From a virus (Duplodnaviria > Caudoviricetes), in IMG/VR virus record IMGVR_UViG_3300027891_000004, positions 103,821 to 167,820 of that record: a DNA stretch of 64,000 nt, one strand, 5' to 3'. Every line of letters begins with the position of its first letter. Position 1 is the first letter of the stretch. The notes beneath the pieces were generated by a model, which was given only the letters and a program-made list of their open reading frames with translations, made no database searches and was not told the DNA's origin. Shown piece after piece: positions 2,742 to 35,035 of the stretch. The translations under genes were made by a program, and so were the position numbers.

Positions 2742-3650
2742 TTACCTCAATTCTGCAAAATAAAGTAATTCATCAATTTGTTCTTTTGTCGCGTCTGCCG
2801 GGTCAGACGCGTCCAAACAAACATTATCCGTCCTACCCGGAAAAGGACTTAACGCGCGAGCCAATTCCCGCGCTTGTTGCTGCGTACCGCGTTCGCCGTC
2901 GAAGCAGATAATCCTGCGTTGGAACTTTGCAATCTCGTCAAACTGCCCCCTTGTTATTTTCTTCCCGAACGTAGCCACCGCATTCTGTTCCACACGCATC
3001 GCATCGAAAACCCCTTCGCACACAATGATCGTATCGTAATACGATACGTACTGCGCCCCATACAAAAGCGATTTCAAAGGCCGCAACTCTCGCGACGGCG
3101 GGGCGGCAAGGTACGCTGGTAAAACGTCGTCAGCCGTCGTCCGCGTAAGCCACGAAACAACGACACCGTTCCGATCCGGTACAGGGAAAAACAACCTTCG
3201 ACGATACGCCCATTCCGGACTGGTATGTATCGCCATTACGCCCCATTTGTCTCGAACAGTAAACGGGTCCAATCCGCGTTCAACAATGTACTGACACAAA
3301 TAACCGACATCAAAAAGGGGACGCACGCCACCAGGCGGGCTATACGTGCCGGTCGGTTTTTCAACGGGCACATTATAATGCGACGGGAGTTCAAGCTGCG
3401 AAATAAGGTTCCCGGTATTCTCGCCGGGAAACAGCACTCTAAATACTTGAGGAATTGATTTCCATCCGCAGTTCCAACATGTAAAAAAACCCTTTTGTAT
3501 ATGCCAACCCAGCCAGTTCTTATCGCCACCGCAAAAAGGGCAGGGGAACCCCAAAAAATTGTCGGTAATATGCTTATCTCGAAGACCTTCGTCCCCCTTC
3601 CTTTTTACTGGGACGCCGCGACTCCGAAGAAAATGTTCCATTGTCGGCAT
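2742..3650 (-). CDS. DNA primase (zinc finger + Toprim)
   Basis: CPFC...CWNC zinc ribbon, IVCEGVFDA, ICFDGE, SDPAD. Confidence 0.85.
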   Translation of the reverse strand: MPTMEHFLRSRGVPVKRKGDEGLRDKHITDNFLGFPCPFCGGDKNWLGWHIQKGFFTCWNCGWKSIPQVFRVLFPGENTGNLISQLELPSHYNVPVEKPTGTYSPPGGVRPLFDVGYLCQYIVERGLDPFTVRDKWGVMAIHTSPEWAYRRRLFFPVPDRNGVVVSWLTRTTADDVLPAYLAAPPSRELRPLKSLLYGAQYVSYYDTIIVCEGVFDAMRVEQNAVATFGKKITRGQFDEIAKFQRRIICFDGERGTQQQARELARALSPFPGRTDNVCLDASDPADATKEQIDELLYFAELR

Positions 3651-3680: not shown

Positions 3681-4181
3681 TCATTTATTTACAGCGGTGA
3701 TTCGTCCAATTATTTTTTTGATATCCTTACGAGGGAAATTCCAAGCAACTTCGTCAGGCGGCAACGAAGAGCGATATACAGGATTTCGCAGTTTGCAATA
3801 CTTTTCAACCAACTGCTTTGCCTCGTCTTCACAGGCGGCGAAAACATGAAATGTTCCTGAACGGTCGTAGCGCACCTCTACCTCGTAGCAATATTTATCT
3901 TTGGTTCTATCTGTTCCTATTTTCATCGCTGGCAAAATGCGGTCAGACAAAGTGACATTTTTGATGACGTTACGGCGCCCGCTAACCGCAGGGAAAACCC
4001 ATCCAACAATTGCGAACTGCCCGTTAAGTTTATTCTGCGGCAATGTTGTACAGGCCCTTGATTGATATTTCCAACATTTCTCAGCAACCAACTTTCGCGC
4101 TTCATCCTCATTCTTCGCGCATACAAAGAACTTACCAGGGAAGGTAAACGTGATTTCTACTTCATATTCTCTTTTTTCCAT
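3681..4181 (-). CDS. Protein with two tandem copies of a small DpnD/PcfM-like domain; overlaps the end of the HigB-like gene
   Basis: YEVEITFTFPGKFFVCAKNEDEARKLV..C..W.FP and YEVEVRYDRSGTFHVFAACEDEAKQLV..C..WNFP. Confidence 0.65.
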   Translation of the reverse strand: MEKREYEVEITFTFPGKFFVCAKNEDEARKLVAEKCWKYQSRACTTLPQNKLNGQFAIVGWVFPAVSGRRNVIKNVTLSDRILPAMKIGTDRTKDKYCYEVEVRYDRSGTFHVFAACEDEAKQLVEKYCKLRNPVYRSSLPPDEVAWNFPRKDIKKIIGRITAVNK

Positions 4182-4669
4182 AGCAGATACTCCGGGTCAT
4201 TATGGTAGTCCCAAATTTCCTGTATTTCAACCGCAGTAACCTTTGACCAATCTAAATTCCCGTTAGCATCAACGGGTGTAGGATCGTGTTTTGGCACAAA
4301 AACCAAACGCCACCCACCATGTAAAGCGCCAGCAAGTTGCCCAGCCCTATTACCCTCAAGACTATGAAAGTTACCGCTTTTGTCTCTCAGCCCCCGCAAC
4401 TCCTTTTTATCCTTCAATTCTGCAAGGGTAATGGCCTTTTCTAGCCGTTGCAACTGCTTTATAAGGACTTTTCGGTTTTCTGGCACCACGCCAAATTCTG
4501 AACTTTCTGGATTACAGTGTTCAGCAACTTCTGGATTTTTATAGTGGATATCCACCATATTATCCACCGATTCGCACAGGACGCCGCAGGCAACTTGATC
4601 GCCCCAGATATTCACGCCTTTTCCCAAATCGCTTACTGACCCACCGTATAGCCTTTCAAATTCGCTCAT
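4157..4669 (-). CDS. higB: HigB/RelE-family toxin with an extra 37-aa N-terminal leader ending VDN
   Basis: MVDIHYKN...FHSLEGNRAGQLAGALHGGWRLVF.P...LDWSKVTAVEIQEIWDYH is a classic HigB-like signature. Confidence 0.8.
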   Translation of the reverse strand: MSEFERLYGGSVSDLGKGVNIWGDQVACGVLCESVDNMVDIHYKNPEVAEHCNPESSEFGVVPENRKVLIKQLQRLEKAITLAELKDKKELRGLRDKSGNFHSLEGNRAGQLAGALHGGWRLVFVPKHDPTPVDANGNLDWSKVTAVEIQEIWDYHNDPEYLLWKKENMK

Positions 4670-4825: not shown

Positions 4826-4857
4826 AAAAAGAAAAGCCCGCCTGTGTGGCGGGCTTC
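4826..4857 (-). terminator. Intrinsic terminator of the head operon
   Basis: AAGCCCGCC-ACACA-GGCGGGCTT followed by TTCTTTTT on the minus strand. Confidence 0.75.
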
Positions 4858-32546: not shown

Positions 32547-33946
32547 TCTTTTTCTTTCAACAAAAAAGCATTGGAAATTATCTTAAAACTGACCATAGGA
32601 TTCTGCACCGATTTGAAAACAATGCCTTCTCTCGCGCCGCCGTAGGCACTCTGTCCGTCCGCCTGATTAACCAATCGCTGTACGACCAAATCAATAAGCC
32701 CACCAAGAAAGACATTCCATACATCGCTCTTATCATCAAGATCGTTATATTGCATGGACGCTGCCGTACTTGCAGCACATATCTCCGGAATATCCGGGCT
32801 AATCTTTTGGAATCCAATCCCGGGGACCTGCTGAATCGGCGGGTCATCATACAGACTATTCAGACAACAGATAATACGATCTCTCTCTGCAGCGGAAACA
32901 TATTGTCGAACCTCAATATCATAAATATCAAAAACAAACAGCTCCGCTTCTTTCAATTTGAACGGATTCTTCTGGATGCCGGGGCCCATAATTTCGCCCT
33001 GCAAAGCAAGCAGCCTGTCGGTACCCTTGCAATACTGTACAAGACGTTCACGAATATGATACTTATACGCCATGTCCCAATAGACAGACTTCGTAAAAAC
33101 CTCTTTCGTAAACGGAACCTCATTACCTTCGTCATCAACGCGATTAAACGTCAGATACTCCACAGCAGGCTCTTTGAGTTCCAGATTACGGGAACATACG
33201 CCAAAGTCCCAATATACATTAGGACCGCCACCAATTGTCGGTTCTATTCTCTTGTTGCAATACATCGAACAGGATGTTCCGTCACATTTTTCGGTAACCT
33301 CGAAGACATATTGAAACAGCTCAAGAATATCACGTTGTCCCATACTCTGTATCCGCGTCTGATCGGTCTTGGGCATAATATGCGTAGGGAAACTGCGCAG
33401 CGGCTTACCGATATTAAAACCAAAACCTCCCGTTACAGGACGCTGCCAAAGTTTAATCTTCAACAATTCCGTAACATCCGCACCTTCTTCCGTATCCGAA
33501 TCAATCTCAGGAAACTTCGATAGCGGCAAGGCCAAACCCTGACTAATACAGGATTTGAACTTAGCAGATTTCAGCCGGTAGCCCTCAGTCCCGTTCATCA
33601 CCTTATTGCATCGTCCTTCCAATACAGAGTATCTGTCCTCCTTTGGAAGGAAGCTGTCAATCTCTAAAAAGACACAGGAATCACCAACACGGAACTCGCC
33701 CTTTCCGGCAACACACTGCCAACCGTTTCCCTGAAAAGACACGCACTCAATTCTGTCCGCACCTTCAATAGGGGATACAGACTTGATCCGTGTAACGGTC
33801 GCCAGCTTCCTTGCATCATTTTCCACCGGGTTTTCCATGAACTCTCCAGACGTATCATTTACATTTAAATCGATGCTCATGTTTCTTTTTCCTATAGTTA
33901 GTTGGTCTATAAAATTCGCTTCTGCGGCGTCTCTGTGAAATTCCAT
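32543..33946 (-). CDS. RNA ligase, DRB0094/Rnl5 family (true start probably 33839)
   Basis: RKLATV..I..V.PIEGADRIE, TEKCDGTS, QGEI.GPGIQ, REGIVF, FKIISN. Confidence 0.85.
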   Translation of the reverse strand: MEFHRDAAEANFIDQLTIGKRNMSIDLNVNDTSGEFMENPVENDARKLATVTRIKSVSPIEGADRIECVSFQGNGWQCVAGKGEFRVGDSCVFLEIDSFLPKEDRYSVLEGRCNKVMNGTEGYRLKSAKFKSCISQGLALPLSKFPEIDSDTEEGADVTELLKIKLWQRPVTGGFGFNIGKPLRSFPTHIMPKTDQTRIQSMGQRDILELFQYVFEVTEKCDGTSCSMYCNKRIEPTIGGGPNVYWDFGVCSRNLELKEPAVEYLTFNRVDDEGNEVPFTKEVFTKSVYWDMAYKYHIRERLVQYCKGTDRLLALQGEIMGPGIQKNPFKLKEAELFVFDIYDIEVRQYVSAAERDRIICCLNSLYDDPPIQQVPGIGFQKISPDIPEICAASTAASMQYNDLDDKSDVWNVFLGGLIDLVVQRLVNQADGQSAYGGAREGIVFKSVQNPMVSFKIISNAFLLKEKE

Positions 33947-34488
33947 TCAATCGTATCGGGTTGCGTTTTAAATATATCAACATGAACGCCCCCGCAACAA
34001 ATACTACACTGTTCTTCAACTATCCGTCTGGCCTCTTCCGCATTTTCAGCTTTCACTGTAAACGAGCCGTCGAAAATAAATTGAACGGGAATGTTAAATT
34101 CTTTTTTTCTACTTTTTTTGTTTCGTTTTCGATCCTGTAACTTTCCTCTGCGATGTGAATGCGTGATAAGGCGGATACGCGGTCTAATATCTTCCCCATT
34201 TGCCGCCTGCTCAAGAAGTTCAAGACCGATGTCAATATCCAACAAATTCCAATGGAAACCATGTACCCACCCGTATTTACCGTAATCAGTAGAACTAAAG
34301 TCTACGCTATGAATATCTGCGTCATCGACATAGCGAAACCACGGAAAAAGATCGAATGATAAAAAATAATCCTTCTCGGGCCCTCGAATCCAAAAGCCAT
34401 CTTTTTCTATTGAAAGAATAATGGCTCTCCGGCATACTCTGGGATATTCTTCATTCGACGGGTAAGCCGGATATGTCGGGTATTGCAT
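33907..34488 (-). CDS. DUF2442 antitoxin-like domain fused to the DpnD/PcfM-like domain
   Basis: GFWI...YFLSFDLFPWF...HWNLLDIDI, then EFNIPVQFIFDGSFTVKAENAEEARRIV..C..WNF. Confidence 0.7.
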   Translation of the reverse strand: MQYPTYPAYPSNEEYPRVCRRAIILSIEKDGFWIRGPEKDYFLSFDLFPWFRYVDDADIHSVDFSSTDYGKYGWVHGFHWNLLDIDIGLELLEQAANGEDIRPRIRLITHSHRRGKLQDRKRNKKSRKKEFNIPVQFIFDGSFTVKAENAEEARRIVEEQCSICCGGVHVDIFKTQPDTIEWNFTETPQKRIL

Positions 34489-35035
34489 AGCCTTTGTTTT
34501 GTCTTTTTTGTTCTTTTTTTCCGGCTTTGTATCTTGCAACTGCTTCTGCTTCTTTTTGGGGGTCATTTGTAGGCTCTGTGTTTATTGGAGGCATTAGGGC
34601 ATCCCAATCTTTAAGAAATGCTTTTCTGTTCGCTTTTACATGTTTTAAAGTTCGGTCAATAACCGGCTGTGGCACGCCGCCAAAACTAATCGCTTTTACC
34701 TGATCTCTATTTGGCCCGTAGCAAAGCAAAATCTTAAATGTTCCGTACTGATGCGACTCATTCGTTGGAATTCCTTTTGGATTCACGTGTACGTGCGGTC
34801 CTTCGTTTTTGCGTTCCTCATTGCTCTTTCCCTGGTCATGTGAAGTCGCGCCAAACCAAAAGAGCACGCTGCCTTCTTTGTACGGCGCACTCGTAAAATT
34901 TGCCATGTTCCAAACGGTTTCGCGCCGACCGCCACTTGTGACTTGGCCTGCCTCTATTGTTTGAAACGACGTATTGCTGCCAAAATAGCGGCAATCGCCA
35001 GCACCTTGCAATTGCGAAAAATCGTTCAACATCAT
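34451..35035 (-). CDS. DUF4160 toxin-like protein with a 43-aa N-terminal leader ending VWN
   Basis: LFWF...EGPHVHV...FKI.L...FLKDW; paired with DUF2442. Confidence 0.7.
   Translation of the reverse strand: MMLNDFSQLQGAGDCRYFGSNTSFQTIEAGQVTSGGRRETVWNMANFTSAPYKEGSVLFWFGATSHDQGKSNEERKNEGPHVHVNPKGIPTNESHQYGTFKILLCYGPNRDQVKAISFGGVPQPVIDRTLKHVKANRKAFLKDWDALMPPINTEPTNDPQKEAEAVARYKAGKKEQKRQNKGYAIPDISGLPVE

What the first reader, a model, noticed from the sequence alone, without database searches (positions are those of the whole stretch)
3681..4669. HigB/RelE toxin carrying the leader and lacking a HigA antitoxin
Seen: a complete HigB-like domain starts right after SVDN. The overlapping downstream gene (25-bp overlap) is not an HTH-type HigA but a doubled small domain. 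Known: HigB/RelE toxins are ribosome-dependent mRNases usually paired with a HigA antitoxin. Inference: this is a domesticated TA toxin that may be packaged and unmasked by head-protease cleavage, then injected to shut off host translation or a defence response. The downstream gene may be a new type of antitoxin.
Basis: partly seen in the sequence, partly recalled or inferred. Interest (0 to 1): 0.82.

Follow-up and report, generated by a model that had tools for sequence, protein, structure and literature searches.

The report
Leader-tagged phage HigB toxin, new partner
An uncultured 168-kb phage carries an intact HigB-type RNA-cutting toxin behind a short disordered leader, paired with a previously undescribed two-domain protein instead of the usual HigA antidote; this points to a toxin-immunity cassette that the phage may load into its capsid, though neither toxicity nor loading has been shown.

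Summary
Gene 4157-4669(-) encodes 170 aa: a disordered 37-aa N-terminal extension ending in SVDN, then a complete HigB fold. Of 66 aligned relatives, 44 are about 110 aa with no extension and start exactly at the column of M38. The AF2 model aligns to P. vulgaris HigB from residue 39 (Z 9.0, rmsd 2.5 A, 93 residues). The residues aligned with HigB His54, Asp90, Tyr91 and His92 are present (H102, D154, Y155, H156).

Gene 3681-4181(-) overlaps the toxin gene by 25 nt. It is an internally duplicated ~70-aa alpha+beta domain (E 6e-9) with no HTH and no clear structural match. The genome has no HigA.

In 8 of 11 leader-bearing loci with a readable downstream gene, this domain follows the toxin. Two loci have an ankyrin protein and one an unrelated protein. 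Two distinct bacterial relatives without a leader have true HigA.

The same domain is also fused to a DUF2442-like antitoxin domain, behind a leader-tagged DUF4160-like gene at 33907-35035.

This copy's leader resembles the phage's shared leader only marginally. All 13 leader-bearing relatives have Asn just before the core.

The antitoxin role is plausible. Capsid loading, cleavage and injection are untested.

The scan had already noted a paralogous cassette 41 kb upstream in this genome (e1-5751157).

Verdict: new variant of a known kind.

The parts
4157..4669 (-). Toxin gene, 170 aa: leader + HigB-like core + 14-aa C-terminal tail
   Evidence: ORF. PHROG 3066 'toxin of TA system' E 8e-6. Family profile against PDB HigB, E 4e-9 to 2e-8. 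AF2 pLDDT 80.6. VIA Z 9.0 to HigB.
4559..4669 (-). N-terminal extension (residues 1-37), acidic and predicted disordered, ending in SVDN
   Evidence: pLDDT about 50 over residues 1-30. pI 4.1. Absent from 44 of 66 relatives. Weak match to the type-B leader profile.
4202..4558 (-). HigB-like core, residues 38-156, with H102, R121 and D154-Y155-H156
   Evidence: Column conservation: H 65/66, R 65/66, D 52/66 (N 13), Y 60/66, H 65/66. Alignment to the HigB 'KLHPL' and 'EDYH' motifs. Critical residues are as given in PMC5027501.
3681..4181 (-). Partner gene, 166 aa, basic (pI 9.4): two copies of a ~70-aa alpha+beta domain (about 3942-4178 and 3684-3899)
   Evidence: Internal repeat E 6e-9. AF2 pLDDT 88.3. 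No clear PDB or BFVD match. Conserved downstream of leader-HigB genes.
4833..4857 (-). Intrinsic-terminator-like hairpin (10 pairs, 7 GC, T-run) ending the upstream gene's transcript; a 163-nt AT-rich spacer then leads to the toxin start
2742..3650 (-). DNA primase gene 30 nt downstream of the partner, with no terminator between (context)
   Evidence: PHROG 47, E 5e-36.
33907..35035 (-). Related cassette. A leader-tagged DUF4160-like gene (34451-35035) is followed by an ORF (33907-34566) with a DUF2442-like region and a C-terminal copy of the partner domain
   Evidence: Leader match to the paralogue's leader, E 3.5e-8. PF13711 E 0.022 and PF10387 E 0.064. Partner-domain profile E 3e-11.

Best explanation
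This is a two-gene toxin-immunity cassette of HigB descent that has been adapted to a phage.

The first gene makes a pro-protein. It has a 37-residue acidic, disordered leader followed by a complete HigB-type ribosome-dependent mRNA endonuclease with its catalytic His, Arg and Asp-Tyr-His in place.

The second gene is translationally coupled through a 25-nt overlap. It makes a basic protein built from two copies of a new ~70-residue alpha+beta domain. This protein has replaced the HTH antitoxin HigA and most likely binds and silences the toxin in the producing cell.

The leader is a diverged member of a leader family that this phage puts on many unrelated small proteins. The most likely reading is that it directs the toxin into the prohead and is cut off after the invariant Asn, between Asn37 and Met38. 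That cut would free a protein identical in extent to a free-standing HigB. The untagged partner would stay behind. The freed toxin would then enter the next host with the DNA and cut mRNA there.

Shown here: the fold, the catalytic residues, the exact domain boundary, the absence of HigA, the conserved adjacency of the partner, and the Asn junction.

Inferred: toxicity, neutralisation by the partner, capsid loading, cleavage, and delivery.

Sub-confidences: HigB-type domain 0.95; partner is the cognate neutraliser 0.6; the leader loads this copy into capsids 0.35.
For: HigB identity:
- A profile of 66 family members hits P. vulgaris HigB structures at E 4e-9 to 2e-8, and GraT at 1.8e-8.
- 32 of the 66 members hit PF05015.
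- Foldseek's top hits are HigB. VIA gives Z 8.5-9.0, rmsd 2.3-2.7 A, covering the whole HigB chain from model residue 39.
- H102, R121, D154, Y155 and H156 are conserved. They align with the HigB residues shown to be critical in PMC5027501.

Boundary:
- 44 of 66 relatives start at the M38 column.
- All 13 leader-bearing relatives have Asn just before the core: DN|MV, EN|KV, FN|L or IN|L.
- The same cargo carries different leader types, for example P0015 with the 'MERLADIS..FE' type.

Partner:
- Eight loci have the new domain downstream: the window, its paralogue, L001, three tandem pairs in L002, and L011, L012 and L019, where L011 and L019 have a single copy.
- The genes overlap or are at most 12 nt apart.
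- The partner carries no leader.
- Partners diverge faster than toxins (42-63% against 60-86% identity).
- Leaderless bacterial relatives have HigA instead: L016 has PF01381 at E 2e-11 and PDB HigA at 8e-8; L009 hits HigA 2icp at E 0.007.
- There is no HigA or XRE HTH in the genome.
- The partner domain is fused to a DUF2442-like antitoxin region behind another leader-tagged toxin-like gene.
- Ankyrin proteins, a common type of immunity protein, take the partner's place in L004 and L020.

Leader family and head protease:
- The genome holds a leader family and a head maturation protease gene at g85184-86878.
Against: - The window protein itself does not reach PF05015.
- Its own leader is not significantly similar to any other leader in the genome (phmmer found nothing; profile E = 2).
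- The cassette lies in the replication module, upstream of the primase and after a terminator, not with the head genes. Late expression is therefore not evident.
- The toxin core is acidic and the partner basic. This is the reverse of the usual toxin-antitoxin charge pattern and is unexpected for an rRNA-binding toxin.
- Co-divergence of toxin and partner is weak (Mantel r 0.43, p 0.065, 6 pairs).
- The partner domain also occurs with a non-HigB toxin, so it may not be a HigB-specific binder.
- No complex model, no toxicity data and no virion data exist.
Confidence: 0.5

Rival explanations
1. This is an ordinary intracellular toxin-antitoxin or moron cassette. The pair acts only inside the infected cell, for example in timed host mRNA decay, exclusion of competing phages, or as a selfish addiction unit. 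The N-terminal extension of this copy would be a decaying remnant, or a regulatory or inhibitory propeptide, rather than a capsid ticket.
For: This copy's leader is degenerate. The cassette is placed with replication genes after a terminator. It occurs at unrelated positions: the tail operon for the paralogue, the helicase region in L001, a triple tandem array in L002, and next to an integrase in L017. That is the behaviour of a mobile two-gene unit. The two paralogues share DNA similarity only within the coding cores.
Against: All 13 phage-clade members keep an N-terminal extension with an invariant Asn at the junction, and several carry well-conserved leaders of two types. This argues for selection on the extension. 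The switch from HigA to a new partner tracks the presence of the leader: 11 leader-bearing loci against 2 distinct leaderless loci.
Confidence: 0.25
2. The downstream protein is not an antitoxin. It would be a helper, such as a chaperone or adaptor that hands leader-tagged cargo to the prohead, or a nucleic-acid-binding regulator. Toxin restraint would come from the leader itself.
For: The partner is basic (pI 8.5-9.5). Its ferredoxin-like alpha+beta fold recalls RNA-binding modules, but only weakly (S6-like hits at Z about 5). The same domain is attached to a DUF2442-like antitoxin region in a cassette with a different toxin type. It may therefore serve a function common to leader-tagged toxins rather than bind HigB.
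Against: It is found in only 3 ORFs of a genome with about 20-30 leader-tagged genes, so it is not a general loading factor. In other loci its place is taken by ankyrin or other proteins, as expected for interchangeable immunity proteins. The tandem pairs in L002 each keep their own diverged copy.
Confidence: 0.15
3. The HigB-like protein has been domesticated to a non-lethal role, for example as a ribosome- or RNA-binding factor or a specific RNA processing enzyme for phage transcripts. The pair would form a functional heterocomplex, not a toxin plus antidote.
For: The whole leader-bearing clade has shifted to an acidic core (pI 4.9-7.2, against a median of 8.7 in leaderless relatives). The phage subclade has a 9-residue insertion before the catalytic His. 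A 14-aa C-terminal tail follows the terminal DYH in the window copy.
Against: All catalytic residues are retained across the clade. A dead variant does exist (the L012 fragment with His and Arg replaced), which shows that loss can happen but has not happened here.
Confidence: 0.1

Closest known systems
HigB/HigA type II toxin-antitoxin systems (P. vulgaris HigB, PDB 4mct, 4px8, 4ypb; P. putida GraT, 6f8s; Pfam PF05015)
   Same: Same fold. The residues aligned with His54, Asp90, Tyr91 and His92 are present, and the motif is the C-terminal DYH. The toxin gene lies upstream of its partner, as in higBA. Leaderless relatives of this very family are paired with true HigA.
   Different: There is a 37-aa N-terminal leader. 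A roughly 16-residue insertion in the C-terminal beta-hairpin and a 9-residue insertion before the catalytic His are present. The core is acidic. The partner is a tandem alpha+beta domain with no HTH. The window protein itself is below the PF05015 threshold.
Phage T4 internal proteins and Alt, with the capsid targeting sequence removed by prohead protease gp21 (PMC3012670, PMC9026906)
   Same: A short N-terminal tag is shared by unrelated, fast-evolving cargo proteins of one large phage. A conserved junction residue sits just before the mature protein.
   Different: There is no sequence relation. No S77 (gp21) or S78 Pfam match exists in the genome, and the protease candidate is of DUF2213 type. 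The junction residue is Asn, whereas T4's is Glu (from my own knowledge of T4). The cargo here is a toxin with its own partner gene. Loading and cleavage are untested.
MuF polymorphic toxins of temperate phages (PMC5576092) and polymorphic toxin systems in general (PMC3482391)
   Same: A delivery module at the N-terminus is combined with swappable toxin domains and a small immunity gene immediately downstream. Ankyrin-type partners occur in some loci.
   Different: The delivery module is a ~30-45-aa disordered leader, not a MuF head-morphogenesis domain. There is no MuF Pfam hit on this protein. The toxin is a whole TA-type toxin rather than a C-terminal tip.
DpnD/PcfM-like small proteins (PF14207)
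   Same: The best, sub-threshold Pfam hit for the partner's beta-beta-alpha start (E 8e-4, 19.8 bits against a cutoff of 25). The precomputed annotation lists PF14207.
   Different: The hit covers only the first 30 residues of each repeat. No functional knowledge transfers from it. Membership is not established.

Membership tests
HigB-like toxin (PF05015, RelE/ParE superfamily) | RelE-type alpha/beta fold superposable on HigB | tested here: met
   VIA Z 8.5-9.0, rmsd 2.3-2.7 A, 88-94 residues aligned to all P. vulgaris HigB chains. Foldseek's top 6 hits are HigB.
HigB-like toxin (PF05015, RelE/ParE superfamily) | Catalytic residues equivalent to HigB His54, Asp90, Tyr91, His92 | tested here: met
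   H102, D154, Y155 and H156 are present and conserved in 52-65 of 66 relatives. The residue list is from PMC5027501.
HigB-like toxin (PF05015, RelE/ParE superfamily) | The protein itself scores above the Pfam gathering threshold | tested here: not met
   No PF05015 hit for the protein or in a six-frame search of the genome. Homology is reached only through a family profile and through 32 of 66 relatives.
HigB-like toxin (PF05015, RelE/ParE superfamily) | Ribosome-dependent mRNA cleavage and growth arrest | not testable with these tools
   Needs expression and cleavage assays.
HigBA type II TA module | Cognate HTH (XRE-type) HigA antitoxin encoded next to the toxin | tested here: not met
   The partner has no HTH. 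TIGR02607 gives no hit, and PF01381 gives only two sub-threshold hits inside large unrelated ORFs of the genome.
Type II toxin-antitoxin module (generic) | Two small co-oriented, adjacent or overlapping genes that are conserved together | tested here: met
   25-nt overlap. The partner domain lies downstream in 8 of 11 leader-bearing loci.
Type II toxin-antitoxin module (generic) | The partner binds and neutralises the toxin | not testable with these tools
   No multimer prediction was available. Co-divergence is weak (Mantel r 0.43, p 0.065).
Capsid-targeted, protease-processed internal proteins (T4 CTS type) | N-terminal tag shared by unrelated cargo proteins of the same phage | tested here: inconclusive
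   The tag family is real: 7 ORFs at E 1e-15 to 1e-20 with a type-B profile, and about 10 more of type A. This gene's own tag scores 7.7 bits, reached by 0 of 2000 shuffles, but E = 2 genome-wide.
Capsid-targeted, protease-processed internal proteins (T4 CTS type) | Conserved cleavage junction at the start of the mature protein | tested here: met
   Asn immediately precedes the core in 13 of 13 leader-bearing relatives, and the core start coincides with the start of 44 leaderless relatives. Cleavage itself is not shown.
Capsid-targeted, protease-processed internal proteins (T4 CTS type) | Presence of the processed protein in virions | not testable with these tools
   The phage is uncultured and no proteome is available.
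MuF polymorphic toxins | N-terminal MuF head-morphogenesis domain | tested here: not met
   No Pfam family matches the toxin protein. Its N-terminus is a 37-aa disordered peptide.
DpnD/PcfM-like (PF14207), for the partner | Score above the gathering threshold over the domain | tested here: not met
   19.8 bits against a cutoff of 25, covering profile positions 1-30 of 46.

The most novel reading that the evidence does not exclude
The phage runs a polymorphic-toxin-like delivery system of its own. A family of disordered leaders loads many swappable cargo proteins into the capsid, including a ribosome-dependent HigB RNase and DUF4160-type toxins. A head protease (or capsid-assisted cleavage) cuts after an invariant Asn to release proteins with native N-termini. 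A new modular immunity domain protects the producing cell. That domain occurs alone, doubled, or fused to a DUF2442 antitoxin. The toxins are fired into the next host with the DNA.
Probability: 0.3. Interest if true: 0.85.

Novelty: new variant of a known kind. Interest (0 to 1): 0.62.

Why it matters
Classical TA toxins are thought of as intracellular, self-addressed poisons held in check by DNA-binding antitoxins. Here a HigB lineage has been taken over by large uncultured phages. Three changes go together: gain of a leader peptide, loss of HigA, and gain of a new partner domain (or an ankyrin protein).

If the leader is a capsid ticket, this would be a case of a ribosome-dependent mRNA interferase used as an injected weapon. 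It would also extend the T4 internal-protein principle to toxin-immunity pairs.

Even without delivery, the partner is a candidate new antitoxin fold that can be tested directly. The exact coincidence of the leader's end with the native start of free-standing HigB gives a clean cleavage-site prediction.

Tried and rejected
- Searches of the cultured-phage collection with the region (megablast) and with the toxin (tblastn) found nothing.
- Pfam, NCBIfam and PADLOC gave no hit for the toxin itself.
- A tblastn of this copy's leader against the window found no second copy. A simple SVDN-type motif scan also found none.
- Searches for more partner genes found little. The viral-contig scan found none. 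The metagenome-contig scan found only one fragment that was already known. A word-indexed search with the whole partner found only itself and the L001 homologue. A search with the single-domain profile found nothing.
- Structure searches for the partner gave no convincing match. Foldseek PDB and BFVD had nothing at E <= 1e-3. VIA wide gave at most Z 5.6, to generic ferredoxin-like folds. ESM Atlas scores were at most 0.83, with only unnamed 76-77-aa Bacteroidota or viral clusters.
- S78 and S77 protease Pfam models found nothing in the genome.
- A literature search for a virion-packaged HigB found nothing relevant; the one 'HigB' hit was a surname. A 'DpnD/PcfM' search returned unrelated acronyms.
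- A promoter consensus scan and a short-blast of the 166-nt upstream spacer against the genome showed no repeated promoter-like motif.
- Comparison of the two paralogous cassettes at DNA level showed no shared flanks or insertion scars.

Full report
**Setting.** The window is bases 103821-167820 of a single 167,820-bp virus contig that CheckV rates 94% complete. Nearly all genes are on the minus strand. Around the finding lie a DNA primase gene (2742-3650, PHROG 47, E 5e-36), ParB-like genes and a DUF5662 gene. This is a replication and nucleotide-metabolism neighbourhood. No cultured phage in the reference collection resembles the region at DNA level, or the toxin at protein level.

**Check of the observation.** Two minus-strand ORFs are present as described: 4157-4669 (170 aa) and 3681-4181 (166 aa), overlapping by 25 nt. 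Residues 34-37 of the first are SVDN, and Met38 follows.

Direct family searches on the 170-aa protein are weak:
- no Pfam, NCBIfam or PADLOC hit;
- PHROG 3066 'toxin of TA system' at E 8e-6;
- GraT (PDB 6f8s) at E 0.002.

Collecting relatives resolves the identity. Seven close homologues exist in metagenomes, plus one paralogue in the same genome. A profile of these, scored against 1.84 billion representative proteins, finds 773 relatives at E <= 1e-3.

I aligned 66 of them (A4). The profile of that alignment hits P. vulgaris HigB structures at E 4e-9 to 2e-8, and GraT at 1.8e-8. Of the 66, 32 match PF05015 on their own.

The AF2 model has mean pLDDT 80.6. Residues 1-37 score about 50 and the core scores mostly above 85. 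It superposes on every P. vulgaris HigB chain at Z 8.5-9.0, rmsd 2.3-2.7 A, with 88-94 aligned residues. Model residue 39 falls on HigB residue 1 (Foldseek ranking).

In alignment A4, 44 of 66 proteins begin exactly at the column of Met38.

**Catalytic residues.** Schureck et al. (PMC5027501) showed that His54, Asp90, Tyr91 and His92 of HigB are critical. In the profile-to-HigB alignment, the HigB 'KLHPL' His and the C-terminal 'EDYH' align with H102 and D154-Y155-H156 of the window protein. Across the 66 relatives these columns are H 65/66, D 52/66 (N in 13), Y 60/66 and H 65/66. The Arg of 'WRL' (R121) is 65/66. The active site is intact.

Differences from canonical HigB are:
- an insertion of about 16 residues in the last beta-hairpin, shared by the whole ~110-aa family;
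- a 9-residue insertion before the catalytic His, specific to the phage subclade;
- a 14-residue tail after DYH, shared with the closest homologue.

An unexpected feature is charge. The cores of all 13 leader-bearing members have pI 4.9-7.2 (window copy 6.3). The leaderless relatives have a median pI of 8.7.

**The leader.** The genome does have a family of N-terminal leaders on unrelated ORFs. A profile built from 'M..(V/Y)NSFNEL ... SFQ ... (V/F/D/E)N|M'-type N-termini recovers seven ORFs at E 1e-15 to 1e-20. A second type ('MEKLADI..FE.L') links about ten more. This agrees with earlier notes of this scan.

The window gene's own N-terminus is a poor member. phmmer finds no similar leader in the genome. 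Against the type-B profile it scores 7.7 bits. No shuffle out of 2000 reaches that score, but in a search of all genome ORFs the E-value is 2.

The case for calling it a leader is therefore indirect:
- It is disordered and acidic (pI 4.1).
- It occupies the place where close homologues carry clear leaders. The paralogue P0003 and P0004-6, P0009, P0012 and P0014 have the NSF(N/S)EL type. P0015 has the other type.
- It shares an 'LG(K/R)G' stretch with the leader of its closest homologue P0002, which itself has a recognisable 'YN..HEL' start.
- All 13 leader-bearing family members have Asn immediately before the core: DN|MV, EN|KV, FN|L or IN|L.

The same cargo behind different leader types, together with an invariant junction residue, argues that the extension is under selection in this clade.

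**The partner.** The 166-aa protein is an internal duplication (E 6e-9) of a ~70-residue unit with a beta-hairpin, a helix and further strands. Its conserved motifs are Y.V...F...G.F.V.A...(D/E)EA..LV and LP..(E)V.W.FP. AF2 models it well (pLDDT 88.3).

It has no HTH. Its best Pfam hit is sub-threshold DpnD/PcfM (19.8 bits against 25). No solved or predicted viral structure matches convincingly. It is basic (pI 9.4) and carries no leader.

*Genomic association.* Among the 11 leader-bearing HigB loci whose downstream gene I could read:
- Eight have this domain directly downstream. It is doubled in the window, the paralogue (g61410-61931), L001 and three tandem pairs in L002. It is single in L011 and L019. 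In L012 it is doubled, and there the ORF runs on into a HigB-like fragment with the catalytic His and Arg replaced.
- Two have an ankyrin-repeat protein instead (L004, L020).
- One has an unrelated 197-aa protein (L017).

Two distinct leaderless bacterial members that I checked have genuine HigA downstream. L016 has PF01381 at E 2e-11 and PDB HigA at 8e-8. L009 (L010 is an identical copy) hits HigA 2icp at E 0.007. The phage genome has no HigA and no XRE HTH above threshold. So gain of the leader, loss of HigA and gain of a new downstream partner go together.

Partners diverge faster than toxins (42-63% against 60-86% identity). Co-divergence is only suggestive (Mantel r 0.43, p 0.065).

*A finding beyond the given coordinates.* A profile of the partner domain finds a third copy in this genome (E 3e-11). 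It lies at the C-terminus of ORF 33907-34566(-). The middle of that ORF is DUF2442-like (E 0.064), and it follows a leader-tagged, DUF4160-like gene at 34451-35035(-) (E 0.022; leader match). The two Pfam hits are each weak, but they are each protein's top hit. To my knowledge DUF4160 and DUF2442 are described as a toxin-antitoxin pair.

So the new domain is physically joined to an antitoxin-type domain in another leader-tagged cassette. This ties it to toxin control. It also raises the possibility that it does something common to such cassettes rather than binding HigB specifically.

**Transcription context.** A strong terminator-like hairpin (4857-4833, 10 pairs, T-run) ends the upstream gene. 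A 163-nt AT-rich spacer precedes the toxin start. No terminator separates the partner from the primase gene 30 nt downstream. I found no recognisable or repeated promoter. The cassette thus looks co-transcribed with replication genes, which does not by itself fit a late, head-loaded protein.

Cassettes of this family sit in quite different places: between the tape measure gene and a tail gene for the paralogue, near a helicase in L001, in a tandem triple array in L002, and beside an integrase in L017. The two paralogues share DNA similarity only inside the coding cores. The unit is mobile.

**Mechanism.** The best-supported reading is a toxin-immunity pair derived from higBA, in which the partner replaces HigA as a stoichiometric inhibitor. 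The leader most plausibly marks the toxin for incorporation into the prohead and for removal at the Asn|Met junction. This is analogous to the T4 capsid targeting sequence on internal proteins and Alt (PMC3012670) and to MuF polymorphic toxins with downstream immunity genes (PMC5576092). A head maturation protease candidate exists (g85184-86878, DUF2213 and PHROG 530).

Toxicity, neutralisation, loading, cleavage and injection are all inferred. The rivals are an intracellular TA or moron with a vestigial leader, a partner that acts as helper or regulator, and a HigB domesticated to a non-lethal role. These are weighed in the report sections.

**Novelty.** I found no description of a leader-tagged HigB, or of this partner domain, in the paper library. 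The scan itself had already noted the paralogous cassette in this genome (e1-5751157) and the leader family.

- the exact start-column coincidence;
- the HigA pairing of leaderless relatives;
- the ankyrin and other alternative partners;
- the fusion of the partner domain to a DUF2442-like antitoxin;
- the charge inversion.

I class it as a new variant of a known kind.

Noticed in passing
window 33907-35035 (-): A third leader-tagged cassette. A DUF4160-like gene (34451-35035, PF13711 E 0.022) is followed by an ORF (33907-34566) that combines a DUF2442-like region (E 0.064) with a C-terminal copy of the partner domain (profile E 3e-11). The two ORFs overlap by up to 116 nt, depending on the true start.
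   Followed up: partly
L012:611-1213 (JGI 3300005200, contig end): The doubled partner ORF continues without a stop into a HigB-like fragment. In it the catalytic His and Arg are replaced ('IVYEL', 'NNYLVF'). This may be a dead toxin remnant fused to its partner. The contig ends inside it.
   Followed up: no
L004:6543-7280 and L020:1497-1895: Ankyrin-repeat proteins (PF12796, E 8.5e-59 in L004) take the partner's place directly downstream of two different leader-HigB genes. The L004 pair overlaps by 4 nt.
   Followed up: partly
genome g85184-86878 (L013:15184-16878, -): This 564-aa protein has a head-maturation-protease N-domain (DUF2213, PHROG 530) and an acidic, coiled-coil-like tail. The tail contains 'VTSFNEALILNLL' (aa 342-354), which resembles the leader motif NSFNELL. 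This could be chance, or a hint that leaders mimic a scaffold segment.
   Followed up: no
window 4202-4558 against 3681-4181: The charge pattern is the reverse of typical TA pairs: acidic toxin core (pI 6.3) and basic partner (pI 9.4). This holds in all six doubled-partner pairs examined.
   Followed up: partly
window 4559-4576 (-): The codons for SVDN ('tcg gtg gat aat') place a GGTGG-like purine-rich stretch about 6 nt before the ATG of Met38. A leaderless isoform from internal initiation is conceivable. Met at this position is kept in 9 of 13 leader-bearing relatives.
   Followed up: no
L017:1601-2842: One leader-HigB homologue (P0009) lies next to a phage integrase gene, so some carriers of this toxin clade may be temperate elements.
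   Followed up: no
L001:6142-6501: In the closest homologous locus, the cassette is followed by another leader-type gene that starts 'MNTYGSFEELF'. Leader-tagged genes therefore also cluster there.
   Followed up: no
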